From assembly GCF_003018115.1 (NCBI RefSeq), contig NZ_CP027457.1: 64,000 bases of DNA; one strand, 5' to 3'. Under the pieces are notes generated by a model. The model saw only the letters and a program-made list of their open reading frames with translations, did not search any database and was not told the DNA's origin. This DNA comes from Escherichia coli (GTDB taxonomy: Bacteria > Pseudomonadota > Gammaproteobacteria > Enterobacterales > Enterobacteriaceae). Below are positions 24,203-47,429 of the stretch, piece by piece. Position 1 is the stretch's first letter; the number at the start of each line of letters is the position of its first letter. Both the position numbers and the translations under genes were made by a program.

Positions 24203-24431
24203 GCAAAAAAGCTCCCGAAGGAGCCTTCATTTTCACTTTTTTAAATCCAACGACAGACGGCTGGCATTTAAGTATTGTGAAATATTATCAAATGTAATCA
24301 TCATTGATTTACAAAAGATACATTTTGCCCCGAAAGGATTCATGTCAGAAACATCAAAAGATGATGTTCTATACTGGGAACCATGACAACACGGGCATCT
24401 AAAGTGAATATGGTTTGTAATATTGTCTACC

Positions 24432-24644
24432 TCAAAGCGCCACTACATGAACAGCGGCAGGACCTTTAGGTCCGTTCTCAATACCAAATTCAACTTCCTG
24501 ATTCTCAGTTAATGTTTTGAAATCGTTGCTCTGAATTGCTGAGAAATGGACAAACACATCTTTGCTGCCATCTTTCGGCGTGATGAAACCAAAACCTTTT
24601 TCAGGGTTAAACCATTTCACTAAACCAGTCATTTTGTTAGACAT
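24432..24644 (-). CDS. cspI: Cold shock protein CspI
   Basis: 70 aa CspA-family sequence [23 protein letters not shown]. Confidence 0.9.
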
Positions 24645-25006
24645 AATTATTACCTTTTGAAGAAATTAGCCCTTGGGCAGAATGGTCCGAAAAAAAATAT
24701 CAGAGAGAAAAACCAACAAGGAAATCTCAAGAGGTACAAATAATAAAATTATAACAATGACTGCTTCAGATAAATTTGTAACAAACCAGAACACCATTAA
24801 CGCATGATTAACCACCCATAGCAAGGATTACTTTTGTAAAGAAAAACACAGCAATGAAAGAATAGCTTTATTTATTAATAAAACGTGTCATTCTGATTAA
24901 GACCTTTTATCTTACCCTTAAGATTTCAGGAATTTTGGCTCATGGAAGAGTCCTTTTTATTTAAATTTTACATTCCGCGATGTAAATGTTCCGATTTAAT
25001 ATTACC

Positions 25007-27045: not shown

Positions 27046-27315
27046 GCTTTTTGTGGGAGTCATCCACTTACGCACTTTGTTTTGCCATGCCAGCAGTTAG
27101 CTTCTGCTGTAAAACTATTCATGCAGCAAACCTGCACTTCACCACAATGGTTAGCATACTTTTCCTGATTAAGATTTTGCCAAATATGCTAGCCATTGTT
27201 TCATGTATTGGACCTCCTTACTTTTTATTAAAGAGATCCAATATTCACTACTCTGTCCGTATCTCTACTCAGGCATCAGCCTTCTTCGTTATCGTATACA
27301 GACGAGCGATGAATT

Positions 27316-27531
27316 TTAATCAGTAATGATGACATTTGCTGCTGCAGGACCTTTAGCACCACTCTCTATAGAGAAGGTAACCTTTTGACCTTCAAATAAG
27401 GTTCGATAATTATCATTCTGAATCGCAGAAAAATGCACAAACACATCTTTACTACCATCAACAGGAGAAATAAAGCCGAAACCTTTATCAGCGTTAAACC
27501 ATTTTACTAAACCAGTCATTTTATTTGACAT
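27316..27531 (-). CDS. cspB: Cold shock protein CspB
   Basis: 71 aa CspA-family sequence [23 protein letters not shown]. Confidence 0.9.
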
Positions 27532-27831
27532 TCTACATTCCTTAACTTGAGCCTTTCGGCATAAATGGTTTGCATAACAGAAACGACTTCGTACTTAATT
27601 GGAGAGACTCAAAGAAGGAATAAGTGAATAACACCTGAAATGAGAACTGCTTTAGTAAACTACTTCGTATATCGTCTGTTCTTCAAACCGACGCAATCAT
27701 TAACGCATAGTTGAACATATGAAGCAATGTTTATTTTAGACATCCAGCCATCTTCAACCCCATCAAAAAACTATAGCTTTCTTCAGGAACGTGTGTATAG
27801 TGCGCCAAGTTATCAGTATTAAGGAATTTTT

Positions 27832-32899: not shown

Positions 32900-34600
32900 A
32901 ACTATTTCTGTAGTCACTTTTGTGGGGACAGTCCACAAAACTGCCAACTTCCGCTTCTTGCTCTTAGCGGACATTAGCATAGGCTATTTACCATAACGCC
33001 TCATTACGCGCACCGCCCAGACTGACTCAGCGCGTTTCTGGCATATCCCCGGTAAAACAAGTAACAAACCACCCGAAAATGAACACCAGAAACGCGACTT
33101 AAGAATCTACCCTATGAATGGATATGCACTCAACCGAATCGATCTTGGTTTCAATCTTTTTTATCGGGATCAGGCTTCTTTTTAGGTAACTTCGGGGGCT
33201 TAACTTGCTGATGACTTTGCGTTCGGCGCGTAAGCCAGGGATGGTCAGCTTTAGGTTTAACATAGTATTTTGAGCGTAAATCAATACGGGCATTATCCAC
33301 TCGTTCATGGACACTCTTTTCATCATCCAGTGGTATAGGCTCCGGGCCATCAACATACTTTTCCCAGCCCAGCGCTTTCCCGTCATACAGAACGTTAATT
33401 TCACCGTCAAAGTTCTCGCATACAGTAACAACCGAATGCCTAAGTCGATATCCCCGGCCCTCACTGCGTACCTGAAACGCACTGCTTTTGTACTGGAAAG
33501 TGAGATTTTTAGACAGAACGCGCTTCGCCTGTAGGCTGAAGATATAACCCAGTTCCTCTTCAGAATGGTGCACATCAAGATGAGCATTATCAGTAGTACG
33601 AGGCGACGTAGCGAACCGGTTGTTATAGGCTTCAATAAAGGTCGGCAACCATGCATTTGCTGTTTCAATATCACTGATATTCTGAAGCCGCATTTCTTTG
33701 ACCAGCCTGTCCTGTAGTGTCTGATTGGCGCGCTCTACCCGCCCTTTTGCCTGCGGGCTGTTGGCATGGATTGGCTCGATGCCCAGTGTCTTTATCGCAC
33801 GAGTGAACTGGGTCAGCTCACCTTCCCGCTCTGGGTTATTTACCCTGAATATACTGTGTCTATCAGAGTAGAGAGCGAGCGGTACGCCATGATCATTAAG
33901 GTAACCCCGGAGGGTTTCCATGTAAGCCCGGGTTGTTTCAGCAGGCACAAAACGCAACGCCATCAACGCACTGGTGGCATCATCAATGAAAACGATCAGT
34001 GTACATCTGGGGCCTCGATTTTCAAACCAGTCATGAGGTGAGCCATCAATCTGGATCAGTTCACCGTAAGATGGTCGTCGCATGCGGCGTTGATATATAC
34101 GGGCAATTTTACGACGGCGTTCACGCCATAACCCCTCTTCTATCATCCACTTTCTGAGAGTTTCAACGGATAAAGATAAACCGTGTATCTCGCGCAATTT
34201 TTCGCACGCAAACGTAGGTCCAAAATCAGCGTAACGGCCTTTGAGGAGTGAAATTACTGTTGCTCTGAATTCAGTAGAAAAGGAATTATTAGGACGCTTT
34301 CCACGTCGGTGGGAAACCAGACCAGAAGGCCCTTCATTTCTATACCGTTGCACCAGACGTTTAACCTGCCGAATAGAAATGCCAATGCGTGCCGCAGCTT
34401 GTTCCTGAATAATCTGAAGTCGGTGGAGTTCCTTATGACTCATCGTAACAGTCTCTTTGATCATGAAAAATCCCCCAGAGAATTGTCTGGGGACATTTTA
34501 GAATGGTTCAAAGGGGACATTACAGCTTGGTGTTAACAATAGCCTGCTTCTCCGTGCCTTTCGGCACGTAAGAGGCTAACCTACATGTGTCTAGCATGAA
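32900..34600 (-). mobile_element. Insertion sequence carrying a single DDE transposase (IS481/ISNCY-type); ends not resolved
   Basis: Single 437-aa transposase ORF; terminal inverted repeats could not be assigned by eye. Confidence 0.55.
33151..34464 (-). CDS. DDE transposase with N-terminal HTH and integrase-core (rve) catalytic domain
   Basis: 437 aa; D (IQIDGS), D (YSDRHS), E (GRVERANQ) triad spacing typical of rve. Confidence 0.85.
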   Translation of the reverse strand: MIKETVTMSHKELHRLQIIQEQAAARIGISIRQVKRLVQRYRNEGPSGLVSHRRGKRPNNSFSTEFRATVISLLKGRYADFGPTFACEKLREIHGLSLSVETLRKWMIEEGLWRERRRKIARIYQRRMRRPSYGELIQIDGSPHDWFENRGPRCTLIVFIDDATSALMALRFVPAETTRAYMETLRGYLNDHGVPLALYSDRHSIFRVNNPEREGELTQFTRAIKTLGIEPIHANSPQAKGRVERANQTLQDRLVKEMRLQNISDIETANAWLPTFIEAYNNRFATSPRTTDNAHLDVHHSEEELGYIFSLQAKRVLSKNLTFQYKSSAFQVRSEGRGYRLRHSVVTVCENFDGEINVLYDGKALGWEKYVDGPEPIPLDDEKSVHERVDNARIDLRSKYYVKPKADHPWLTRRTQSHQQVKPPKLPKKKPDPDKKD

Positions 34601-34798
34601 ATTGGCCTCAGATTAATGTTAAGCGTCTTGCAGGACGCGTAATGTTAACTGGGGCTTTTCTCTATCTGCCGTTGGTGTCCATGCCCGAGGCAGATAGCCT
34701 CAAGCACCCGCAGTCATTCTACTTAACTAAGATTTCCCCGCAAACCGTTTTTGTCCAGCACAGTAAATATCCAACTAAACCAATGGAGTTCGCTGTAT

Positions 34799-35660: not shown

Positions 35661-35741
35661 GTAAGCGTCGTCTCAGCACCGTCTGGCAGATCCTGAAATT
35701 CCTGAGAGAATAGTGGACACCAAATATGGTGGACGCAATCC

Positions 35742-36146
35742 ATGAAATCATTAACCGCAGTGCGTAAAAAAAGCCCTAATTATCCCGTTGAGTTCAAAAT
35801 CAAAATGGTTGAACTCTCGCATCGACCAGAGATCTCCGTAGCGCAACTCGCTCGTGAGCATGGGATCAACGATAATTTGCTGTTCAAGTGGCGCCAGTAC
35901 TGGCGCGAAGGAAAACTACGTCCTCCTTCAACAACAGAAAACAACGTGCCTGAGCTGCTCCCGATAACACTTGATGCCGAAGATGTTGTCCCTACAACCT
36001 CCCCCCGGTCACAACCTGTAGCTGCTGCGACACCTGAATCACTCAATATCAGCTGTGAAGTGACGTTCCGGCACGGATCACTCCGTCTGAATGGTGCCAT
36101 CAGCGAAAATATCCTGAACCTGCTGATACGGGAGCTCAAACGTTGA
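35742..36146 (+). CDS. IS66-family accessory protein TnpA (orf1)
   Basis: 134 aa, HTH-like N-terminus, first ORF of element. Confidence 0.85.
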   Translation: MKSLTAVRKKSPNYPVEFKIKMVELSHRPEISVAQLAREHGINDNLLFKWRQYWREGKLRPPSTTENNVPELLPITLDAEDVVPTTSPRSQPVAAATPESLNISCEVTFRHGSLRLNGAISENILNLLIRELKR

Positions 36147-36490
36147 TCCCATTACCATCAGGGACAAAGATCTGGCTGGTCGCTGGCATCACCGATATGA
36201 GAAACGGCTTCAACGGCCTGGCGGCAAAGGTGCAGACGACGCTGAAAGACGATCCGATGTCAGGTCACGTTTTTATCTTCCGTGGGCGTAATGGCAGTCA
36301 GGTAAAGCTCCTCTGGTCTACCGGCGATGGACTGTGTCTGCTGACCAAACGGCTGGAGCGCGGCCGCTTCGCCTGGCCGTCAGCCCGGGATGGCAAAGTG
36401 TTCCTCACACCGGCACAGCTGGCGATGCTGCTGGAAGGTATCGACTGGCGGCAGCCTAAAAGACTGCTTACGTCCCTGACTATGTTGTAA
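36143..36490 (+). CDS. IS66-family TnpB (orf2)
   Basis: 115 aa, 4-nt overlap with tnpA. Confidence 0.85.
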   Translation: MIPLPSGTKIWLVAGITDMRNGFNGLAAKVQTTLKDDPMSGHVFIFRGRNGSQVKLLWSTGDGLCLLTKRLERGRFAWPSARDGKVFLTPAQLAMLLEGIDWRQPKRLLTSLTML

Positions 36491-36538
36491 GCCTCTTTAT
36501 CCTGGTCGACGCTGAATGAGCCTGGTAATATACCCGGT

Positions 36539-38074
36539 ATGAGCAGCTCACTTCCTGACGATATCAATGCACTGAAACGTCTCCTTGCCGAACAGGAGGC
36601 GCTGAACCGTGCCCTGCAGGAAAAGCTGAACGAGCGTGAACGCGAAATAGACCATCTGCAGGCACAGCTGGATAAGCTGCGCCGGATGAACTTCGGCAGC
36701 CGCTCGGAAAAAGTCTCCCGTCGTATCGCACAGATGGAAGCTGACCTGAAGGCACTTCAGAAAGAAAGTGATACCCTTACCGGTCGGGTTGACGACCCGG
36801 CCGTGCAGCGCCCGCTGCGTCAAACCCGCACCCGCAAACCGTTCCCCGAATCACTCCCCCGCGATGAAAAACGGCTGCTGCCGGCAGCGTCATGCTGCCC
36901 GGAATGTGGAGGCTCGCTGAGCTATCTGGGTGAGGATGCCGCCGAACAGCTGGAGCTGATGCGCAGCGCCTTCCGGGTTATCCGGACTGTACGTGAAAAG
37001 CATGCCTGTACTCAGTGCGATGCCATCGTGCAGGCCCCCGCGCCTTCACGGCCCATCGAGCGGGGTATCGCAGGACCGGGGCTGCTGGCCCGCGTGCTGA
37101 TCTCAAAGTATGCAGAGCACACCCCGCTGTACCGCCAGTCTGAAATGTACGGCCGCCAGGGCGTGGAGCTGAGTCGTTCACTGCTGTCGGGCTGGGTGGA
37201 TGCATGCTGCCGGCTACTGTCACCGCTGGAAGAAGCGCTTCAGGACTATGTGCTGACTGACGGTAAGCTCCATGCTGATGACACGCCTGTCCCGGTGCTG
37301 TTGCCAGGCAATAAGAAAACGAAGACCGGGCGGTTATGGACCTACGTTCGTGACGACCGTAACGCCGGGTCAACGCTGGCGCCGGCGGTGTGGTTCGCTT
37401 ACAGCCCGGACAGAAAAGGCATCCATCCGCAGACCCATCTTGCGGGGTTCAGTGGTGTACTGCAGGCGGATGCATACGCCGGGTTCAACGAGCTGTACCG
37501 GGATGGCCGGATAACGGAAGCCGCCTGTTGGGCTCACGCCCGCCGTAAAATCCACGATGTGCACGTTCGCACCCCGTCAGCCCTGACGGAGGAAGCGCTG
37601 AAACGGATCGGCGAACTGTACGCCATCGAGGCAGAGATAAGGGGAATGACGGCGGAGCAGCGCCTTGCCGAACGTCAGTTGAAAACGAAACCGCTGCTGA
37701 AATCCCTGGAAAGCTGGCTGCGTGAAAAGATGAAAACCCTGTCGCGACACTCAGAACTGGCGAAAGCGTTCGCATACGCCCTGAACCAGTGGCCGGCGCT
37801 GACGTACTATGCAGATGATGGCTGGGCTGAGGCGGACAATAACATCGCTGAAAATGCGTTGCGGATGGTCAGTCTGGGCCGCAAAAACTACCTGTTCTTC
37901 GGTTCGGATCATGGAGGAGAGCGGGGAGCGCTGCTGTACAGCCTGATCGGGACGTGCAAACTGAACGGAGTGGAGCCAGAAAGCTACCTCCGCTATGTCC
38001 TTGACGTCATAGCCGACTGGCCGATAAACCGGGTCGGCGAACTGCTCCCCCTGGCGCGTAGCACTGCCGACTGA
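36539..38074 (+). CDS. IS66-family transposase TnpC (orf3)
   Basis: 511 aa, N-terminal leucine zipper, Cys-x2-C zinc motif, DDE core. Confidence 0.9.
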
Positions 38075-38115
38075 ATAACACATCCCCGTCAATACGGTTC
38101 TTGCTGCACGCTTAC

Positions 38116-38593: not shown

Positions 38594-38950
38594 TTAAAAA
38601 ATCAGAACGCCGTGCGGCCTCAACACCCGAAAGGCTTCTTTAAATCTCTGTCGCGAATCATCACGCCAGGCATCTTTATTCAGCCGTCCATATTTCTTTC
38701 CCATCCAGGCGTTATCACCAACACTCTCAAGATGCGGAGGGTCTAATACAACCATCGAAAAAGATGCGTCTGCAAATGATAATGCACGAAAATCTGCGAT
38801 AATGTCAGGGCTGATAATCAAGCGTCTCCCATTGCGTAATGTGTATCCTTCTTTTCTGATATCGCTGAATATCGCCCGTTCGTCAGACTTATCGAACCAG
38901 AACATGCGGCTGCCACAGCACATATCAAGAATGGTTGCCGGTGCACTCAC
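38594..38950 (-). pseudogene. Truncated SAM-dependent methyltransferase-like ORF (motif I then DPPH)
   Basis: 118 aa is too short for a full Rossmann MTase; in-frame TAA followed by about 32 further sense codons. Confidence 0.4.
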
Positions 38951-39369
38951 TGCGCCACGTCCTGAAAATTACCCTGATAGAAAGCCAGTATGCGCTGCAT
39001 AACTTCGCTCTTCCGGCACTCGCGACAGATTATGTTTAGGCGACTGTCGTAGCGACGTATTTCTCCGTCAGGTGATGACCAGATAAGGTCCGGATCAACC
39101 ACAGCAGGTTTCTTCACCTTTGCCCTCGAGAGTTTTTTGCGGGCGTTTTGCCAGTCCTTACGCGCCTGTTCAGAGGGGAATAACCCGTAGCCGGAGTTGT
39201 ATACATCGCCACTGGCTACCAGCTCTCTGGCAAGAACGCTCATCAGATATCTAGTCGCACCTGTTTTAGCTTCCAGTTGCCGTAACGTCTCACGGCCGCT
39301 CTGGCGCACGAGTTCCACCACCTGCCATTTAATTTTTTCCCGCTCTTCTTGTGTAAAAACTTTTGCCAC
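38947..39369 (-). CDS. Hypothetical 140-aa prophage early-operon protein
   Basis: Translationally coupled (4-nt overlap) to downstream MTase-like ORF; no family recognised. Confidence 0.45.
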   Translation of the reverse strand: MAKVFTQEEREKIKWQVVELVRQSGRETLRQLEAKTGATRYLMSVLARELVASGDVYNSGYGLFPSEQARKDWQNARKKLSRAKVKKPAVVDPDLIWSSPDGEIRRYDSRLNIICRECRKSEVMQRILAFYQGNFQDVAQ

Positions 39370-39409: not shown

Positions 39410-40429
39410 TTATCCTCTGAAACCAGGCGGAATTTCTGTATCCGGTTCAGAAATATGATTAACACAACGCTGTACAGGTGAACGTCCCAGGCGGATGACC
39501 AGTTCGTCCCATTTTTCGCGGAGCTTTGACGGGCTCATGATGTTTTTTACCCAGAATGGATCTCGCTGAACCCGACCAAACATTTCGCAAATTTGTCTGT
39601 GGCTTCTGCCATCCAGCATCCGCATTGTGCGCACGTCATTGGCCCAGGCAGTCCAGTTAGGCTCTTTTGGTCGCATGATCTCGCCATCATCACTGGCTGC
39701 CTGTTCGTAGAGACCCACGATCCGCCCCCAGATCCACTGCGCACACGCCAAATCCTCCCTGCTACCCCACTGGCGTTTTTTCGCACTAAACACAACCGCG
39801 TCGGAGTTCCGGGTTAAAAAATCCTGTTCAGTCGTCTGCGGGTCCGGTTGCGAAGCTTCCGGACGAAAAGTGTTTTTATTCTCTGTAGTAATCTCTGTTG
39901 TATTCTCTGTAAGATCATCAGGCCATTTTGACCCGATGACATTGGGTCGTTTTGAACCAATGGAGCGTTTCATTTTGACCTCTTCCATCGTGTCATTTTG
40001 ACCTGATGGAGCGGCGCATTTTGAACCGATGGATTCGCTCAATTTGCCACCATCTAAAAGCTCGCTCCCATAGTTGATCGTGTAGAAATTGGTCATATCG
40101 CGCTTTGATTTATTGAGCTTTTCACAACGCAAAAGCCCCAGCGTTTTCAGACTTGCAAACGCGCGCTTTAACGTTGACTCTGACCAGAATGGGAACTGTT
40201 CCAGCCATTGTTCCGTTGTGTTATAAATCCAGCGAACACCATCACATTCCATGCCGGAGTTGGTATCTCTCAACCAGTAGTGCAGTTGTTGCAAAACAAT
40301 GGCTTCGTTTAAGCCAATTTTCATTGCCAGCTGCGTGTTTATAACCAGTGGACGTTCAGCAAAAAGAAGGCTCATAATTCCATCCAGCTTTTTGTTGGTA
40401 TTGCTGTCGATACGCAAGTTTGAAAGCAA
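39410..40429 (-). CDS. Replication initiator / replisome organiser (lambda O-like), start uncertain
   Basis: N-terminal HTH-like domain; gene contains five direct iteron repeats encoding (S/V)IGSK repeats; sits in early-right operon after the cro-like dicC. Confidence 0.65.
   Translation of the reverse strand: MLSNLRIDSNTNKKLDGIMSLLFAERPLVINTQLAMKIGLNEAIVLQQLHYWLRDTNSGMECDGVRWIYNTTEQWLEQFPFWSESTLKRAFASLKTLGLLRCEKLNKSKRDMTNFYTINYGSELLDGGKLSESIGSKCAAPSGQNDTMEEVKMKRSIGSKRPNVIGSKWPDDLTENTTEITTENKNTFRPEASQPDPQTTEQDFLTRNSDAVVFSAKKRQWGSREDLACAQWIWGRIVGLYEQAASDDGEIMRPKEPNWTAWANDVRTMRMLDGRSHRQICEMFGRVQRDPFWVKNIMSPSKLREKWDELVIRLGRSPVQRCVNHISEPDTEIPPGFRG
39920..40035. repeat. Candidate replication origin iterons: five direct repeats of about 19 bp (consensus CATTTTGAMCNGATGG) at about 23-bp spacing, AT-rich region adjacent
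   Basis: Repeats read directly in sequence inside the O-like gene, as for lambda ori. Confidence 0.6.
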
Positions 40430-40877
40430 TTGCTTTTTCTATAAGTTCGTCAGTTTCACGATCCACTACGGCAGGATCAGCAAAAAGCAGTCCGGACTCC
40501 ACCACATCGCCATATTCTTTGTTTAACCCGGCGATCATGCACGTGATGCTTTTTCCGTCAGTAATTTCACGATACAACCTGAAATCATTAATCCGGATAG
40601 CCTCCATAATTGCAGGCACTAGCGCCGTGAACTTTTCACGCTTATCCCTGGTGTCGATAGCCTTCCAGCGTTCAAATATCTTCACTCGATTAACGCCAAG
40701 CGCTCGCTGATCAATCGCGCCACCTTCATATGTGACACGCTGAACATCGATGTTCGGGCGCTCTTTCAAAGCCCAGAATGCTTCAGTGATTAATATCGTC
40801 GCCTGCTCCTGTGTCATTCCTGGTCGACATATCCAGGCATCCAGAGCCTCACGAGCCTGTTCAGGAGTGATTTTCAT
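40356..40877 (-). CDS. Hypothetical 173-aa protein directly downstream of dicC (possibly YdaT-like)
   Basis: Position equivalent to ydaT/cII in lambdoid early-right operons; family call from memory only. Confidence 0.45.
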   Translation of the reverse strand: MKITPEQAREALDAWICRPGMTQEQATILITEAFWALKERPNIDVQRVTYEGGAIDQRALGVNRVKIFERWKAIDTRDKREKFTALVPAIMEAIRINDFRLYREITDGKSITCMIAGLNKEYGDVVESGLLFADPAVVDRETDELIEKAIAFKLAYRQQYQQKAGWNYEPSFC

Positions 40878-41091
40878 TGTTCAACCGCCCCGCCCGCTTC
40901 GTCTTACGATATTCATCATAAACTTTGGGATCATACTGAAGCTCCCCGCCAGATGCCTCCTGTAGACGCATCGCGCGACCTTCGGGAACTAAATCCCCTT
41001 TCCAGCTATAAAGCGAAGCCAAACGAATACCTGCTGCTTGTGCAAGTTTTGTTTTTGAACCGAAATACAAAAGAGCGTCAGTTTTAAGCAT
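40861..41091 (-). CDS. dicC: Cro-like repressor DicC
   Basis: 76 aa MLKTDALLYFGSKTKLAQAAGIRLASLYSW. Confidence 0.9.
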   Translation of the reverse strand: MLKTDALLYFGSKTKLAQAAGIRLASLYSWKGDLVPEGRAMRLQEASGGELQYDPKVYDEYRKTKRAGRLNNENHS

Positions 41092-41174: not shown

Positions 41175-41582
41175 ATGGAAACAAAAAATTTAACTATCGG
41201 CGAACGCATCAGGTATCGTCGGAAAAACCTCAAACACACCCAAAGGTCTCTTGCTAAAGCCCTGAAAATCTCCCATGTGTCTGTATCACAATGGGAACGG
41301 GGTGATAGTGAACCTACAGGGAAGAACCTTTTTGCCCTCAGCAAAGTATTGCAATGCTCACCAACATGGATTCTATTTGGCGATGAAGACAAGCAACCAA
41401 CACCACCTGTTGAGAAGCCAGTTGCCTTATCCCCCAAAGAACTAGAGCTCCTTGAGCTGTTTAATGCACTGCCAGAATCAGAACAGGATACCCAGCTCGC
41501 CGAAATGCGAGCTCGAGTAAAAAACTTCAATAAACTCTTTGAAGAATTACTAAAAGCCCGTCAGCGGACAAATAAAAGATAA
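41175..41582 (+). CDS. dicA: Repressor DicA (HTH_XRE, cI-like)
   Basis: 135 aa METKNLTIGERIRYRRKNLKHTQRSLAKALKISHVSVSQWERGD. Confidence 0.95.
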   Translation: METKNLTIGERIRYRRKNLKHTQRSLAKALKISHVSVSQWERGDSEPTGKNLFALSKVLQCSPTWILFGDEDKQPTPPVEKPVALSPKELELLELFNALPESEQDTQLAEMRARVKNFNKLFEELLKARQRTNKR

Positions 41583-42620: not shown

Positions 42621-42679
42621 ATTTTCTGGTGACGTTTGGCGGTATCAGTTTTACTCCGTGACTGCTCTGCCGCCCTTTT
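42621..42679 (+). ncRNA. dicF: DicF small regulatory RNA (antisense inhibitor of ftsZ translation)
   Basis: Sequence TTTCTGGTGACGTTTGGCGGTATCAGTTTTACTCCGTGACTGCTCTGCCGCCCTTTTT with 3' terminator hairpin, between ydfC and dicB. Confidence 0.75.
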
Positions 42680-43226: not shown

Positions 43227-43318
43227 AACAGTTCCGTAATAAATATCCGGTTTCATTCTTATATGCCAGCAATGGCAGGGATTTGTTCATCCTTAAATCT
43301 GTCATGAGGTTAAAACAA

Positions 43319-45790
43319 ATGAGTAAAGTCTTTATTTGCGCCGCTATTCCTGACGAACTGGCAACAAGGGAAGAAGGCGCTGTGGCTGTAGCCACAGCCA
43401 TTGAAGCTGGCGACGAACGCCGTGCTCGAGCAAAATTTCACTGGCAATTCCTGGAACATTATCCGGCTGCTCAGGACTGCGCTTATAAATTTATTGTCTG
43501 CGAGGATAAACCTGGCATACCCCGCCCTGCCCTCGATTCATGGGATGCTGAATATATGCAGGAAAACCGCTGGGATGAGGAGTCTGCTTCTTTTGTCCCG
43601 GTTGAGACTGAATCCGATCCGATGAACGTCACTTTTGACAAGCTGGCCCCTGAAGTACAGAACGCTGTCATGGTTAAGTTCGACACATGTGAAAACATCA
43701 CCGTTGATATGGTTATTAGCGCACAGGAATTGTTGCAGGAAGACATGGCAACATTCGACGGACATATCGTTGAAGCGTTGATGAAAATGCCAGAAGTTAA
43801 CGCCATGTATCCGGAGCTTAAGTTGCACGCCATTGGGTGGGTTAAGCATAAATGTATTCCTGGTGCTAAATGGCCCGAAATTCAGGCAGAGATGCGCATC
43901 TGGAAAAAACGTCGCGAAGGTGAACGCAAGGAAACCGGAAAATACACGTCTGTTGTTGATCTCGCCCGCGCCAGAGCCAATCAACAGTACACTGAAAATT
44001 CAACAGGAAAAATCAGCCCGGTCATTGCTGCCATTCATCGCGAATACAAGCAGACATGGAAAACACTGGATGACGAACTGGCCTACGCTCTCTGGCCTAG
44101 TGATGTGGATGCCGGAAACATTGACGGCAGCATCCATCGCTGGGCAAAAAAAGAAGTTATCGACAACGACCGCGAAGACTGGAAGCGTATCTCGGCATCA
44201 ATGCGCAAACAGCCTGATGCCCTTCGCTACGACCGCCAAACTATTTTTGGCCTTGTCCGTGAGCGTCCGATCGACATTCACAAAGATCCCGTAGCACTGA
44301 ACAAATATATCTGCGAATACCTGACGACAAAGGGCGTGTTTGAGAATGAAGAAACAGACCTGGGCACTGTTGATGTTCTCCAGTCATCAGAAACACAAAC
44401 TGATGCAGTGGAAACTGAGGTATCTGATATCCCAAAAAATGAAACCGCGCCGGAAGCTGAACCATCTGTAGAGCGTGAGGGGCCGTTCTATTTCCTCTTC
44501 GCAGATAAGGACGGAGAAAAATACGGTCGCGCAAACAAACTCTCTGGTCTGGATAAGGCACTGGCTGCTGGCGCCACTGAAATCACAAAAGAAGAATATT
44601 TTGCCCGAAAAAATGGCACATACACGGGCTTACCGCAAAATGTAGATACCGCTGAAGATTCAGAACAACCAGAGCCGATAAAAGTTACCGCTGACGAAGT
44701 AAACAAAATTATGCAGGCAGCCAATATCAGCCAGCCTGACGCCGATAAGTTGCTTGCTGCATCACGTGGTGAATTTGTTGAAGGGATTAGTGACCCGAAT
44801 GATCCGAAATGGGTTAAGGGGCTCCAGACCCGCGATTCTGTGAACCAGAACCAGCATGAATCGGAACGGAACTACCAAAAAGCGGAACAAAACAGTCCAA
44901 ATGCGTTACAAAACGAGCCAGAAACGAAACAGCCTGAACCAGTAGCGCAACAGGAAGTGGAAAAAGTCTGCACCGCCTGCGGTCAGACCGGCGGCGGCAA
45001 CTGCCCTGATTGTGGCGCGGTGATGGGCGACGCAACATACCAAGAAACATTCGATGAAGAGTATCAGGTTGAAGTTCAGGAAGATGATCCGGAGGAAATG
45101 GAAGGCGCTGAACATCCACACAAGGAGAACACTGGCGGCAATCAGCATCACAATAGCGATAATGAAACTGGCGAGACGGCAGATCACCCAATTAAGGTGA
45201 ACGGTCATCACGAAATCACATCCACCAGCAGGACGTGTGACCATCTAATGATCGACCTTGAAACCATGGGAAAAAATCCTGATGCCCCGATCATCTCAAT
45301 AGGTGCAATATTTTTCGATCCGCAAACCGGAGATATGGGACCGGAATTTAGTAAGACTATCGATCTGGAAACTGCTGGCGGAGTCATTGATCGGGACACC
45401 ATTAAATGGTGGCTTAAGCAATCACGCGAAGCGCAATCTGCCATTATGACCGATGAAATCCCGTTAGATGATGCACTGTTACAATTGCGAGAATTTATCG
45501 ACGAAAACTCCGGTGAATTTTTTGTTCAGGTTTGGGGAAATGGAGCCAACTTCGACAACACGATTTTGCGCCGTTCATACGAACGGCAGGGGATCCCCTG
45601 CCCGTGGCGTTACTACAACGATCGCGATGTACGCACAATCGTTGAGCTGGGGAAAGCCATAGACTTCGATGCCAGAACGGCTATTCCATTCGAAGGTGAG
45701 CGCCATAATGCACTTGATGACGCCCGTTACCAGGCAAAATACGTTTCAGTTATCTGGCAAAAACTGATCCCGAGTCAGGCTGATTCTTAA
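43319..45790 (+). CDS. ydfE: Full-length YdfE-type protein: large N-terminal region, acidic linker, Cys4 zinc ribbon, C-terminal DEDDh 3'-5' exonuclease domain
   Basis: ORF track 43283-45790; start chosen at MSKVFICAAIPDEL after GAGG; Exo I DLE, Exo II GNGANFD, Exo III HNALDDARY motifs in the last ~190 aa. Confidence 0.7.
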   Translation: MSKVFICAAIPDELATREEGAVAVATAIEAGDERRARAKFHWQFLEHYPAAQDCAYKFIVCEDKPGIPRPALDSWDAEYMQENRWDEESASFVPVETESDPMNVTFDKLAPEVQNAVMVKFDTCENITVDMVISAQELLQEDMATFDGHIVEALMKMPEVNAMYPELKLHAIGWVKHKCIPGAKWPEIQAEMRIWKKRREGERKETGKYTSVVDLARARANQQYTENSTGKISPVIAAIHREYKQTWKTLDDELAYALWPSDVDAGNIDGSIHRWAKKEVIDNDREDWKRISASMRKQPDALRYDRQTIFGLVRERPIDIHKDPVALNKYICEYLTTKGVFENEETDLGTVDVLQSSETQTDAVETEVSDIPKNETAPEAEPSVEREGPFYFLFADKDGEKYGRANKLSGLDKALAAGATEITKEEYFARKNGTYTGLPQNVDTAEDSEQPEPIKVTADEVNKIMQAANISQPDADKLLAASRGEFVEGISDPNDPKWVKGLQTRDSVNQNQHESERNYQKAEQNSPNALQNEPETKQPEPVAQQEVEKVCTACGQTGGGNCPDCGAVMGDATYQETFDEEYQVEVQEDDPEEMEGAEHPHKENTGGNQHHNSDNETGETADHPIKVNGHHEITSTSRTCDHLMIDLETMGKNPDAPIISIGAIFFDPQTGDMGPEFSKTIDLETAGGVIDRDTIKWWLKQSREAQSAIMTDEIPLDDALLQLREFIDENSGEFFVQVWGNGANFDNTILRRSYERQGIPCPWRYYNDRDVRTIVELGKAIDFDARTAIPFEGERHNALDDARYQAKYVSVIWQKLIPSQADS

Positions 45791-46114: not shown

Positions 46115-46148
46115 CTAAAAGCCACACTAACTAATGAGAGAAGTTGAA

Positions 46149-47429
46149 ATGAAATATCCGACAGGCGTGGAAAACCATGGAGGGAAATTACGTATCTGGT
46201 TTGTTTATAAAGACGTAAGAGTCAGGGAAAATCTGGGGGTTCCTGACACAGCAAAAAACAGGCGCGTTGCAGGTGAACTACGCTCCTCTGTTTGTTACGC
46301 AATAAAAACTGGTGTTTTCGACTATGCAAAACAGTTTCCCTCCTCACGCAATCTGGAAAAATTTGGTGAGGCCCGACAAGATTTAACCATAAAAGAACTG
46401 GCTGAAAAATTTCTGGCACTGAAAGAAACTGAAGTCGCCAAAACATCACTCAACACATACCGTGCCGTCATCAAAAATATCCTGAGCATAATCGGTGAAA
46501 AAAATCTTGCCTCATCGATTAATAAAGAAAAATTACTGGAGGTTCGTAAAGAGTTACTGACTGGATACCAGATCCCCAAAAGTAACTATATTGTTACACA
46601 ACCAGGGAGATCGGCTGTAACTGTAAATAATTACATGACAAATCTTAACGCCGTGTTCCAGTTTGGTGTTGATAACGGTTACCTGGCAGATAATCCGTTT
46701 AAGGGGATCTCGCCATTAAAGGAATCAAGAACCATTCCGGATCCTCTTTCGCGGGAAGAATTTATCCGTCTTATCGATGCGTGCAGAAATCAGCAAGCAA
46801 AAAATTTATGGTGTGTTTCTGTTTATACTGGAGTTCGCCCTGGTGAGCTGTGTGCACTTGGATGGGAGGACATAGATCTGAAAAATGGAACAATGATGAT
46901 CAGGAGAAATTTAGCAAAAGACCGTTTCACGGTACCAAAAACACAGGCGGGAACCAATCGGGTCATTCATCTTATTAAGCCAGCAATCGACGCTCTCCGG
47001 AGTCAGATGACATTAACGAGACTGAGCAAAGAGCATATCATTGATGTTCACCTCAGAGAGTATGGCAGAACAGAAAAACAAAAATGCACCTTTGTTTTTC
47101 AACCTGAAGTGTCAGCGAGAGTAAAAAATTATGGTGACCATTTTACCGTTGACTCAATAAGGCAGATGTGGGACGCAGCGATAAAACGTGCCGGACTCCG
47201 CCATCGAAAATCATATCAGTCGAGACATACTTATGCCTGCTGGTCGCTGACAGCTGGTGCTAACCCGGCATTTATAGCAAACCAGATGGGCCATGCAGAT
47301 GCGCAAATGGTATTTCAGGTATACGGAAAATGGATGTCTGAAAACAATAATGCACAGGTAGCTTTGTTAAATACACAGTTAAGCGAGTTTGCCCCAACCA
47401 TGCCCCATAACGAAGCAATGAAAAATTAA
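46149..47429 (+). CDS. intQ: Tyrosine recombinase / phage integrase (full-length)
   Basis: ORF track 46134-47429; C-terminal catalytic region with R...HxxR...Y pattern (ending HTYACW). Confidence 0.85.
   Translation: MKYPTGVENHGGKLRIWFVYKDVRVRENLGVPDTAKNRRVAGELRSSVCYAIKTGVFDYAKQFPSSRNLEKFGEARQDLTIKELAEKFLALKETEVAKTSLNTYRAVIKNILSIIGEKNLASSINKEKLLEVRKELLTGYQIPKSNYIVTQPGRSAVTVNNYMTNLNAVFQFGVDNGYLADNPFKGISPLKESRTIPDPLSREEFIRLIDACRNQQAKNLWCVSVYTGVRPGELCALGWEDIDLKNGTMMIRRNLAKDRFTVPKTQAGTNRVIHLIKPAIDALRSQMTLTRLSKEHIIDVHLREYGRTEKQKCTFVFQPEVSARVKNYGDHFTVDSIRQMWDAAIKRAGLRHRKSYQSRHTYACWSLTAGANPAFIANQMGHADAQMVFQVYGKWMSENNNAQVALLNTQLSEFAPTMPHNEAMKN

What the first reader, a model, noticed from the sequence alone, without database searches (positions are those of the whole stretch)
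39410..40429. O-like replication initiator with internal iteron origin but no recognisable helicase loader
Five direct repeats (consensus about CATTTTGAMCNGATGG) recur every ~23 bp at roughly 39920-40035 inside the 339-aa ORF and encode (S/V)IGSK repeats; an AT-rich stretch with ATTCTCTGT repeats lies just beyond. This is the architecture of lambda ori inside gene O. The downstream genes are a 140-aa unknown, a truncated methyltransferase-like ORF and then an IS66 element, with no P/DnaC-like loader. Either the replication module uses an unrecognised partner (the 140-aa protein) or host DnaC directly, or it is defective.
Basis: seen in the sequence. Interest (0 to 1): 0.55.

Follow-up and report, generated by a model that had tools for sequence, protein, structure and literature searches.

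The report
Loader-less lambda-type phage replication origin
This is a real lambda-style phage replication initiator gene with its origin inside it and no helicase-loader gene of its own, and its last 20 residues copy the tail of the host restart protein DnaT, which probably lets it borrow the host's loader.

Summary
Window 39410-40375 (minus strand, 321 aa from the ATG) encodes an O-like initiator. Its C-domain is homologous to lambda O. Its middle carries five 15-bp iterons (CATCGGTTCAAAATG type) every 23-24 bp, then an AT-rich 3x12-bp stretch. The cores are read in three different reading frames, so selection acts on the DNA. They encode a predicted disordered linker, as in lambda.

No P-, DnaC- or DnaB-like gene lies in the 64-kb window. 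The 140-aa neighbour is a homologue of lambda Ren (DUF977), not a loader. The same loader-less module occurs in deposited phage genomes (PhiR42_1, HannyBb, mEp460_ev081), so it is probably not broken.

New lead: the initiator ends in ...SEPDTEIPPGFRG, the flexible tail of host DnaT. At least five unrelated phage initiator bodies carry this tail. It is followed either by a DnaC paralogue (YdaV) or by no loader, never by lambda P. The same O body with a Trp-type tail is followed by lambda P.

The tail therefore looks like a loader-specifying adaptor, and this phage most likely uses host DnaB-DnaC. The tail's direct partner is unproven; one AlphaFold fusion test with DnaC showed no docking. I rate it a new variant of a known kind, of moderate interest.

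The parts
39410..40375 (-). O-like replication initiator CDS (321 aa from ATG 40375; the longest ORF starts at TTG 40429, 339 aa). It overlaps the ydaT-like gene by 20 nt.
   Evidence: phrog_391, E 1.3e-91. C-domain matches the lambda O C-domain, E 1e-26. No Pfam hit. Annotated as a 966-nt CDS in three phage records.
40052..40342 (-). Codes for the N-terminal winged-helix domain (about aa 12-108), the presumed iteron-binding domain.
   Evidence: AlphaFold2 model has an H-H-E-E-H-H-E-E topology with pLDDT 65-84. Foldseek finds weak winged-helix hits, including plasmid RepA_N initiators 4PQL/5KBJ/4PT7. DNA binding itself is inferred.
39924..40054 (-). Iteron array. Five strong 15-bp cores at 40017-40031, 39994-40008, 39971-39985, 39948-39962 and 39924-39938, plus a degenerate copy at 40040-40054. 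Period is 23-24 bp.
   Evidence: All exact 10-mer matches in the 64-kb window fall here. The cores are read in three reading frames.
39874..39912 (-). AT-rich tract with three 12-bp repeats (ACAGAGAATA type on the coding strand), the presumed unwinding element.
   Evidence: family D3; 33% GC, strong T/A skew. It lies on the same side of the iterons, relative to transcription, as the AT-rich region in lambda ori. Function is inferred.
39482..39838 (-). Codes for the lambda-O-type helical C-domain (about aa 180-298).
   Evidence: BLASTP to lambda O residues 135-270. pLDDT 74-92. 2,657 representative proteins match at E<=0.001.
39413..39472 (-). Codes for the 20-aa C-terminal tail QRCVNHISEPDTEIPPGFRG, which resembles the DnaT tail.
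   Evidence: Matches the extreme C-terminus of DnaT chains 2RU8, 6AEP and 9ZBT and the last 20 positions of the NCBIfam DnaT model. Predicted disordered. Shared by five unrelated initiator bodies.
38947..39369 (-). 140-aa DUF977 / LygF protein, a homologue of lambda Ren. It occupies the ren position in the gene order.
   Evidence: PF06163 over its full length, E 9.5e-29. phrog_142 at E 1.6e-47, and lambda Ren falls in the same PHROG at E 1.6e-41.
38594..38950 (-). C-terminally truncated SAM-dependent DNA methyltransferase (118 aa; relatives are about 164 aa).
   Evidence: phrog_954 positions 52-165 of 229. A full-length relative was seen (family F23). PhiR42_1 carries the same truncated ORF.
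40356..40877 (-). YdaT / CII-like protein, immediately upstream in the same operon.
   Evidence: phrog_163, E 5.5e-40. RefSeq names it 'toxin YdaT family protein'.
40861..41091 (-). DicC (Cro-like) regulator. A pR-like promoter hit lies at 41152-41124.
   Evidence: NCBIfam DicC, 159.5 bits against a cut-off of 130. Promoter scan; a consensus match only.
41175..41582 (+). DicA repressor (CI analogue), which defines the immunity region.
   Evidence: NCBIfam DicA, 234 bits against a cut-off of 101.
35662..38115 (+). IS66-family insertion (three ORFs of 134, 115 and 511 aa), absent from the otherwise 99.9%-identical phage PhiR42_1. Not part of the replication module.
   Evidence: ORFs. The megablast breakpoint against PhiR42_1 has a 9-bp overlap.

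Best explanation
This is the replication module of a Qin/DicA-type lambdoid prophage that is virtually identical to phage PhiR42_1. It is built like lambda ori-in-O.

Proposed mechanism, with each step marked:
1. The initiator's N-terminal winged-helix domain binds the five or six iterons that lie inside its own gene (inferred).
2. The resulting complex strains the adjacent AT-rich tract (inferred).
3. The lambda-O-type C-domain, together with a 20-residue flexible tail, brings in the replicative helicase (inferred).

The module has no loader gene of its own. It is the natural 'solo' form of a module that in sibling phages carries a DnaC paralogue (YdaV) inserted exactly between the O stop codon and the ren-like gene (shown).

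The tail ends in IPPGFRG, the conserved flexible C-terminus of the host restart protein DnaT (shown). Across the O family, the class of tail changes with the class of loader (shown):
- Trp-type tails go with lambda P.
- IPxGFRG tails go with a DnaC-type loader or with none.

I therefore propose that the tail is a portable docking peptide. It would plug the origin complex into the host DnaB-DnaC delivery system, either directly or through whatever DnaT's own tail binds, and so make a phage loader dispensable (inferred).
For: Identity of the initiator: phrog_391, E 1e-91, and C-domain homology to lambda O, E 1e-26.

Origin:
- Iterons occur only here in 64 kb, at regular 23-24-bp spacing.
- The cores are read in three frames.
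- They encode residues 108-168, inside the segment AlphaFold2 predicts as disordered (109-175).
- Relatives with a different N-domain carry a different repeat (TGACCCGTCA, period 15) at the same place in the gene.

No loader: none in the window, and none in the complete HannyBb genome.

The architecture occurs in deposited phage genomes:
- Identical or near-identical O-then-Ren-like arrangement in PhiR42_1, HannyBb and mEp460_ev081.
- Solo tail-bearing initiators in Tritos, vB_EcoS-640R1 and SPN1S.

Sibling loci break homology exactly at the O stop codon and insert ydaV plus one further gene before the ren-like gene.

Tail:
- 14 of its 21 residues are identical to the E. coli DnaT C-terminus.
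- In 105 DnaT orthologues, I, P, G, F, R and G are 99-100% conserved and the x position varies.
- The same tail sits on five unrelated initiator bodies.
- Of 106 scorable tail-bearing initiators in IMG/VR, 40 are followed by YdaV, 66 by no loader, 0 by P-like and 0 by DnaB-like genes.
- Six of six divergent IPxGFRG members have no loader.
- Three of three divergent Trp-tail members, lambda itself and 78 lambda-P loci have lambda P.
- P0036 has the same O body (71% identical to the window protein in alignment A2; 75% over the BLASTP match) with a Trp tail and P.
- Rac YdaU, Gifsy-2 and Stx phage 75/02 combine the tail with a DnaC-like loader.

Against: - No experiment shows that this protein binds these repeats or that the fragment replicates.
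- Tail and loader are adjacent in the genome, so part of their co-variation may be plain linkage within one mosaic block rather than functional coupling.
- An AlphaFold2 model of DnaC fused by a linker to the tail left the tail at pLDDT 21-32, meaning no confident docking on monomeric DnaC.
- The 2026 preprimosome paper speculates that the DnaT N-terminal domain, not the tail, recruits DnaB/DnaC (PMC13377028).
- This particular prophage carries an IS66 insertion and a truncated methyltransferase, so it may be inactive for other reasons.
- I did not confirm from publications that PhiR42_1 or HannyBb form plaques. That is inferred from their deposition as complete phage genomes.
Confidence: 0.6

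Rival explanations
1. The module is a deletion derivative. It lost its DnaC-like gene (ydaV) and cannot start replication on its own, so the prophage is replication-defective or relies on a co-resident prophage's loader.
For: About 38% of tail-bearing initiators, and about half of the same O-like cluster, do carry ydaV 7 nt after the stop codon. This prophage has an IS66 insertion and a truncated methyltransferase. Inter-prophage complementation is documented in E. coli O157 (PMC2669165).
Against: The same loader-less arrangement is found in complete deposited phage genomes: HannyBb, mEp460_ev081, Tritos and SPN1S. It is also present at 100% identity, covering at least 80% of the 3.1-kb query, in 411 complete E. 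coli genomes. Six of six divergent IPxGFRG lineages are solo, and two initiator bodies (clusters 1 and 3) are always solo.
Confidence: 0.12
2. The tail does not touch DnaC or DnaB. Instead it mimics DnaT in the restart pathway. It would dock on PriA, PriB or host DnaT, so that the opened origin is treated like an abandoned fork and the PriA-PriB-DnaT preprimosome loads DnaB.
For: The tail belongs to DnaT, a preprimosome component. The DnaT C-terminal domain docks on PriA through a conserved hydrophobic interface whose residues are not named in the text I could read (PMC13377028). Removing DnaT residues 154-179 lowers cooperative ssDNA binding (PMC4132743). The DnaC-tail fusion model showed no docking.
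Against: Phage partners of the tail, when present, are always DnaC paralogues, never PriA/PriB-like. The tail swaps together with the loader class on an otherwise constant O body, as expected for a direct initiator-loader contact like lambda O-P.
Confidence: 0.2
3. The 140-aa DUF977 protein is an unrecognised helicase loader or adaptor that replaces P.
For: It is the next gene, 41 nt downstream, and most tail-bearing initiators have it nearby.
Against: It is a full-length homologue of lambda Ren. From my own knowledge, Ren is dispensable for lambda replication. It also follows lambda-P-type and DnaC-type loaders in other modules. It is absent downstream of other solo IPxGFRG initiators, which have PerC, a 147-aa unknown or DUF1064 instead.
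Confidence: 0.04
4. The 23-bp repeats are only a by-product of a repetitive peptide linker and are not an origin.
For: They lie in a low-complexity, predicted disordered coding segment, and three copies encode IGSK.
Against: The same 15-bp core is read in all three frames as SIGSK, PSGQN and EEVKM, so the DNA is what is conserved. The spacing of 23 bp is not a multiple of three. Relatives with another N-domain have another repeat at the same position. The layout equals the annotated lambda ori.
Confidence: 0.03

Closest known systems
Phage lambda ori / O-P replication module
   Same: Gene order is cII-like, O, (loader), ren. The origin lies inside the initiator gene: iterons, then an AT-rich tract, in the direction of transcription, encoding the interdomain linker. 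The C-domain is homologous (E 1e-26).
   Different: There is no P gene. The N-terminal DNA-binding domain is not detectably homologous to lambda O's (no PF04492 hit). The iteron sequence differs. The C-terminal tail is IPPGFRG-type instead of ...NTDWIYGVDL.
DnaC-type lambdoid modules (Rac ydaU-ydaV, Gifsy-2, Stx phage 75/02, O157 Sakai Sp4/Sp10/Sp12)
   Same: The initiator ends in the same DnaT-like tail, and the downstream DUF1627 / DUF977 genes are the same. Some sibling loci have this very O-like protein at 94-95% identity (PMC2669165).
   Different: The DnaC paralogue is missing here. Homology with the sibling loci breaks at the O stop codon.
E. coli DnaT (primosomal protein I)
   Same: The last 20 or so residues match, including the near-invariant IPxGFRG terminus. 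Some pipelines therefore label these phage proteins 'Primosomal protein I'.
   Different: The window protein has no DnaT N-terminal domain and no PF17948 three-helix bundle. It scores 16 bits against an NCBIfam DnaT cut-off of 201. It is an origin-binding initiator, not a restart factor.
Iteron-plasmid Rep initiators (pSC101 RepA, R6K pi, RepA_N family)
   Same: In working mode it is similar: a winged-helix initiator binds direct repeats next to an AT-rich tract and relies on the host DnaB-DnaC, with no loader of its own. The fold search gives weak matches to RepA_N N-terminal domains.
   Different: There is no detectable sequence relationship. The origin lies inside the gene. No DnaA boxes are enriched near it. 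The plasmid comparison rests on my own knowledge, not on a test made here.

Membership tests
Lambda-type ori-in-O replication origin | Four or more direct repeats (iterons) inside the initiator gene | tested here: met
   Five strong cores plus one degenerate core at 39924-40054, period 23-24 bp. All exact matches in the 64-kb window are here.
Lambda-type ori-in-O replication origin | AT-rich tract directly after the iterons in the direction of transcription | tested here: met
   39874-39912, 33% GC, T/A-skewed, three 12-bp units. The order is the same as in the annotated lambda ori.
Lambda-type ori-in-O replication origin | Origin encoded in the flexible linker between the N- and C-domains | tested here: met
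   The iterons and AT-rich tract encode aa 108-168. AlphaFold2 gives pLDDT below 50 for residues 109-175.
Lambda-type ori-in-O replication origin | Initiator protein binds the iterons and the fragment replicates autonomously | not testable with these tools
   Needs EMSA or footprinting and a plasmid replication assay.
Lambda O protein family | C-terminal domain homologous to lambda O residues about 185-270 | tested here: met
   BLASTP E 1e-26 over 148 aligned columns at 34% identity. phrog_391 covers residues 35-339.
Lambda O protein family | N-terminal domain of the Phage_rep_O type (PF04492) | tested here: not met
   No Pfam hit at all and no N-terminal BLASTP alignment to lambda O. The domain is a winged helix by model only.
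Lambda O protein family | Partnered by a lambda P-type loader (PF06992) immediately downstream | tested here: not met
   The next gene is DUF977. No P-like ORF exists in the window.
DnaC-type lambdoid replication module | DnaC/IstB-like AAA+ gene immediately downstream of the initiator | tested here: not met
   Absent from the window. Present 7 nt after the stop codon in 40 of 106 tail-bearing relatives.
DnaC-type lambdoid replication module | Initiator ends in the DnaT-like IPxGFRG tail (a feature derived here, not an established criterion) | tested here: met
   ...SEPDTEIPPGFRG, as in Rac YdaU, Gifsy-2 and Stx phage 75/02.
DnaT (primosomal protein I) | Full-length match to the DnaT equivalog model or the PF17948 DNA-binding domain | tested here: not met
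   16.2 bits against a cut-off of 201, matching only model positions 160-179. No PF17948 hit.
Lambda Ren / DUF977 (the 140-aa neighbour) | Full-length PF06163 match and the same PHROG as lambda Ren | tested here: met
   PF06163 positions 1-134 of 134, E 9.5e-29. phrog_142 for both proteins.

The most novel reading that the evidence does not exclude
[IV]PxGFRG at the extreme C-terminus is a portable short linear motif shared by host DnaT and at least five unrelated phage initiator families. It would be the element that couples an origin or restart complex to the enterobacterial DnaB-DnaC loading system. Phages that carry it mimic DnaT and so can discard their own helicase loader. More generally, the variable C-terminal tails on the O C-domain (Trp-type, IPxGFRG, ...DGSF, ...VPxGEVxL) would form a 'loader code'. 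If so, this phage family gives a direct genetic handle on the unresolved question of how DnaT hands DnaB-DnaC to the preprimosome.
Probability: 0.4. Interest if true: 0.75.

Novelty: new variant of a known kind. Interest (0 to 1): 0.55.

Why it matters
Lambda replication is the textbook case of a virus stealing the host helicase with its own loader, P. This is the same origin architecture working, apparently routinely, with no viral loader.

The initiator's tail copies a host protein, DnaT, whose link to DnaB-DnaC is still described as unknown in the 2017 review and the 2026 structure paper I read.

If the tail is the adaptor, three things follow:
- It explains how 'solo' initiators in many enterobacterial prophages fire. 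These proteins are mostly annotated 'hypothetical protein', and 4,280 database proteins match this one at E<=1e-5.
- It gives a simple rule for predicting loader dependence from the last few residues of an initiator.
- It offers a peptide probe for the DnaT step of replication restart.

Tried and rejected
- Pfam scan of the 339-aa protein: no significant domain, so identity rests on PHROGs and on direct comparison with lambda O.
- PDB sequence search: only the 21-residue DnaT tail match, plus a spurious YteR hit.
- Foldseek against the PDB: only weak winged-helix matches for the N-domain, and nothing informative for the C-domain.
- DnaA boxes: one relaxed match at 39350-39358 and no enrichment, so there is no sign of DnaA assistance.
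- Promoter and terminator scan: at chance level for promoters.
- AlphaFold2 of DnaC, a 30-residue Gly/Ser linker and the last 33 residues of O: the tail stayed at pLDDT 21-32. This is negative but weak evidence. It used a monomer rather than DnaB6-DnaC6, a shallow alignment, no control peptide, and no coordinates were available.
- Literature: no paper in the library contains 'PPGFRG' or 'initiator-solo'. I recall, without being able to check, that Weigel and Seitz 2006 classified some phage modules as initiator-only.
- The two DnaT C-terminal-domain structure papers (PubMed ids 30755302 and 25265331) are not held, so I could not learn where the tail sits in those structures.
- The scan of viral contigs for lambda P returned only loci 97-100% identical to lambda P, so that control is not phylogenetically independent. 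I supplemented it with divergent family representatives.
- P0309, a third tail class, lay on a contig too short to show its neighbours.
Full report
WHAT IS THERE

The finding lies in the early-right operon of a lambdoid prophage of the Qin/DicA type. Read on the minus strand, the order is:
- DicA repressor (41175-41582, plus strand), which faces the rest
- DicC/Cro (40861-41091)
- a YdaT/CII-like protein (40356-40877)
- the ORF in question (39410-40429)
- a 140-aa protein (38947-39369)
- a truncated methyltransferase (38594-38950)
- an IS66 element

The 3.1 kb around the ORF is 100% identical to Escherichia phage PhiR42_1 (host ECOR13). It also covers at least 80% of the query in 411 complete E. 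coli genomes. Over 15 kb the window equals PhiR42_1 at 99.9%, except for an IS66 insertion at 35662-38115.

Three phage records start the gene at the ATG at 40375, giving 321 aa. The integrase (46134-47429) and structural genes are also in the window.

CHECK OF THE OBSERVATION

The repeats are real and far beyond chance.
- The four exact matches to CATTTTGAMC in 64 kb all lie between 39924 and 40026. A one-mismatch copy lies among them, giving spacings of 24, 23, 23 and 23 bp on one strand (same register).
- On the coding strand the unit is a 15-bp core, CATCGGTTCAAAATG. There are five good copies and a sixth degenerate one.
- Directly after them, in the direction of transcription, come three 12-bp units (ACAGAGAATA type). 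They sit in the lowest-GC, most strand-skewed part of the gene.

The five cores are read in all three frames, as SIGSK, PSGQN, EEVKM, SIGSK and VIGSK. The DNA word is therefore what is conserved, not a peptide repeat.

WHAT THE PROTEIN IS

Pfam finds nothing, and most RefSeq copies are called 'hypothetical protein'.
- PHROGs places it in phrog_391, 'replication initiation O-like' (E 1e-91).
- BLASTP against lambda O aligns residues 147-294 with lambda O residues 135-270 (E 1e-26). The N-terminal halves do not align.

An AlphaFold2 model built on 23 relatives gives four parts:
- a winged-helix N-domain (aa 12-108)
- a disordered stretch (aa 109-175)
- a confident helical C-domain (aa 180-298, pLDDT 74-92)
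- a disordered tail (aa 299-321)

The iterons and AT-rich tract encode aa 108-168, which is the disordered linker. This is the lambda arrangement.

Foldseek gives only weak winged-helix matches for the N-domain, including the RepA_N plasmid initiators.

Relatives that share the C-domain but have a different N-domain carry a different repeat (TGACCCGTCA, period 15) at the same position in the gene. This co-variation of repeat with N-domain is what one expects of an initiator and its own binding sites.

THE MISSING LOADER

phmmer with lambda P, a P-like protein, DnaC, YdaV, DnaB and P22 gp12 finds nothing in the whole window.

The 140-aa protein is a full-length DUF977. It falls in the same PHROG as lambda Ren. 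The order here is therefore lambda's cII-O-P-ren minus P. DUF977 also follows P-like or DnaC-like loaders in Rac-SA53, in locus L213 and in Stx phage 75/02, so it is not a substitute for them.

The same loader-less arrangement is present in:
- the complete 45-kb genome of phage HannyBb, where no helicase or loader is annotated and the larger unknown ORFs hit no such PHROG
- mEp460_ev081

Other tail-bearing but unrelated initiators are likewise solo in Tritos, vB_EcoS-640R1 and Salmonella phage SPN1S. The architecture as such is therefore not a sign of decay.

THE TAIL

The last 21 residues, VQRCVNHISEPDTEIPPGFRG, match the extreme C-terminus of E. coli DnaT, [21 protein letters not shown].

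In 105 DnaT orthologues that are otherwise 71-99% identical, I173, P174, G176, F177, R178 and G179 are 99-100% conserved, while position 175 varies. [quoted passage not shown] The 2026 preprimosome structure paper still calls DnaB/DnaC recruitment unknown (PMC13377028).

The tail-coding DNA is only about 61% identical between the window, dnaT and Rac ydaU. This points to old divergence under protein-level selection, not a recent capture.

THE TAIL IS PORTABLE AND TRACKS THE LOADER

A pattern scan of IMG/VR returned 119 ORFs ending EPDxxIPPGFRG. They fall into five unrelated bodies:
- O-like
- two DnaD-like types
- a type resembling the DnaT C-terminal domain
- a type with a lambda-O-like N-terminus

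Of the 106 with enough flanking sequence, 40 are followed 7 nt after the stop codon by a YdaV-type DnaC paralogue (50% identical to DnaC). The other 66 have no loader. None has a P-like or DnaB-like gene.

Loci that carry this same O-like protein plus ydaV are collinear with the window up to the O stop codon. They then insert about 1.5 kb (ydaV and a DUF1627 gene) before the ren-like gene.

A search of 1.84 billion representative proteins with the C-domain alone shows the domain carrying distinct C-terminal tail classes. Sampling their neighbourhoods gave:

| Tail class | Members sampled | Downstream loader |
|---|---|---|
| [IV]PxGFRG | 6 of 6 | none |
| Trp-type (e.g. ...NTDWAEGLKV, ...HWNSAEAWENTL, ...SGDWNSADGWEDVL) | 3 of 3 | PF06992 lambda P |
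| ...DGSF | 1 | IstB/DnaC-like AAA+ |
| ...VPAGEVPL | 1 | IstB/DnaC-like AAA+ |

P0036 is the most telling case. It has the same O body as the window protein (71% identical in alignment A2; 75% over the BLASTP match) in the same DicA/Cro/YdaT context. Its alignment diverges from the window protein after the end of the C-domain. It has a Trp-type tail and a lambda P gene, followed by DUF977.

Further support:
- Lambda itself and 78 lambda-P loci always have ...NTDWIYGVDL.
- Rac-SA53 YdaU (...CTDWRDD) has a P-like loader.
- K-12 Rac YdaU, Gifsy-2 and Stx phage 75/02 combine the IPPGFRG tail with DnaC-like loaders. This is the 'DnaC-type' class already recognised for O157 prophages (PMC2669165).

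MECHANISM

Shown:
- the architecture
- the homology
- the absence of a loader
- the occurrence of the module in deposited phage genomes
- the identity of the tail with DnaT's
- the co-variation of tail class with loader class

Inferred:
- the N-domain binds the iterons
- the AT-rich tract opens
- the IPPGFRG tail couples the origin complex to a DnaC-type loading system

In siblings that system would be the phage's own YdaV. Here, and in most relatives, it would be the host's DnaB-DnaC.

The direct partner of the tail is not established. DnaC or DnaB-DnaC is my first choice, by analogy with lambda O-P and because phage-encoded partners are always DnaC paralogues. PriA, PriB or DnaT itself remain possible.

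One AlphaFold2 test, with DnaC fused by a linker to the tail, gave no docking (tail pLDDT 21-32). This is weak negative evidence. It used a monomer and a shallow alignment, and there was no control.

CAVEATS

- Tail and loader are neighbours in the genome, so linkage within one mosaic block contributes to their association. The independent lineages sampled reduce this concern but do not remove it.
- Viability of PhiR42_1 and HannyBb is inferred from their deposition as complete phage genomes. For mEp460, lytic and lysogenic growth is stated for the parental phage (PMC9836094).
- This particular prophage may be inactive for unrelated reasons, such as the IS66 insertion.

COMPARISON AND NOVELTY

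As an origin it belongs to the known lambda ori-in-O kind. As a protein it meets the C-domain criterion for lambda O but fails the N-domain and P-partner criteria. It is not DnaT, despite some pipeline labels.

Modules of O plus a DnaC-like loader are known. The loader-less form is common in databases, but I found no study of it in the library searched.

I did not find the recognition of the DnaT-type tail as a portable, loader-correlated motif described anywhere in that library. Absence from that library is not proof of novelty.

VERDICT

I rate it a new variant of a known kind, of moderate interest (0.55), with a testable lead of higher value.

Noticed in passing
window 35662-38115: An IS66-family element (ORFs of 134, 115 and 511 aa) is inserted here relative to the otherwise 99.9%-identical phage PhiR42_1. 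The 9-bp overlap at the megablast breakpoint suggests a target-site duplication. It did not cause the methyltransferase truncation, which PhiR42_1 shares.
   Followed up: partly
window 42624-42675 (+), 34538-34709 (-), 24405-24790 (-) and 27300-27692 (-): Rfam finds four elements in the prophage: a DicF sRNA, a sok antitoxin RNA (hok/sok-type module), and two cspA-type thermoregulator leaders (cold-shock gene copies).
   Followed up: no
Proteins P0241-P0389; loci L224 and L225: The lambda-O-type C-domain carries several further recurrent C-terminal tail classes...QDYRAG..DGSF...G(I/V)xVPxGEVxL and ...EGTAxRVD. The two sampled are followed by IstB/DnaC-like AAA+ genes and have DUF1376 N-domains. 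This suggests a wider tail-to-loader code.
   Followed up: partly
Loci L032, L016, L014 and L076 (O-like genes, nt about 347-500): O-like relatives with a different N-domain carry four or five tandem TGACCCGTCA repeats at a 15-bp period, plus two more copies downstream, at the gene position where the window has its 23-bp iterons.
   Followed up: partly
Proteins P0001, P0002 and P0004 (448 aa); P0122 and P0175 (409-425 aa): The database holds predicted fusions of YdaT with the O-like protein (PF06254 plus O, one seen on 56 contigs) and of DnaT with DnaC (PF17948 plus PF01695). These may be gene-calling read-throughs of overlapping or adjacent genes, or real frameshift fusions.
   Followed up: no
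Loci with ydaV (e.g. L109 5492-7031); L218-L221; L228 4333-5103: A 220-270-aa DUF1627 / winged-helix protein (phrog_630) nearly always sits between the initiator or YdaV and the Ren-like gene. In several solo modules it is the first gene after the initiator. Its function is unknown, and I did not test a role in replication.
   Followed up: no
window 43283-45790 (+): An 835-aa exodeoxyribonuclease VIII (RecE-like) gene with a C-terminal DnaQ-like exonuclease region. It lies between the dicB region and xis/int, as in PhiR42_1 and HannyBb.
   Followed up: no
window 39916-39938 and 39986-40008: Individual 23-bp iteron units are themselves partly palindromic (CATCAGG...CCCGATG arms; inverted-repeat family I1, 78% complementary), as lambda iterons are. 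This hints at binding by a dimer.
   Followed up: no
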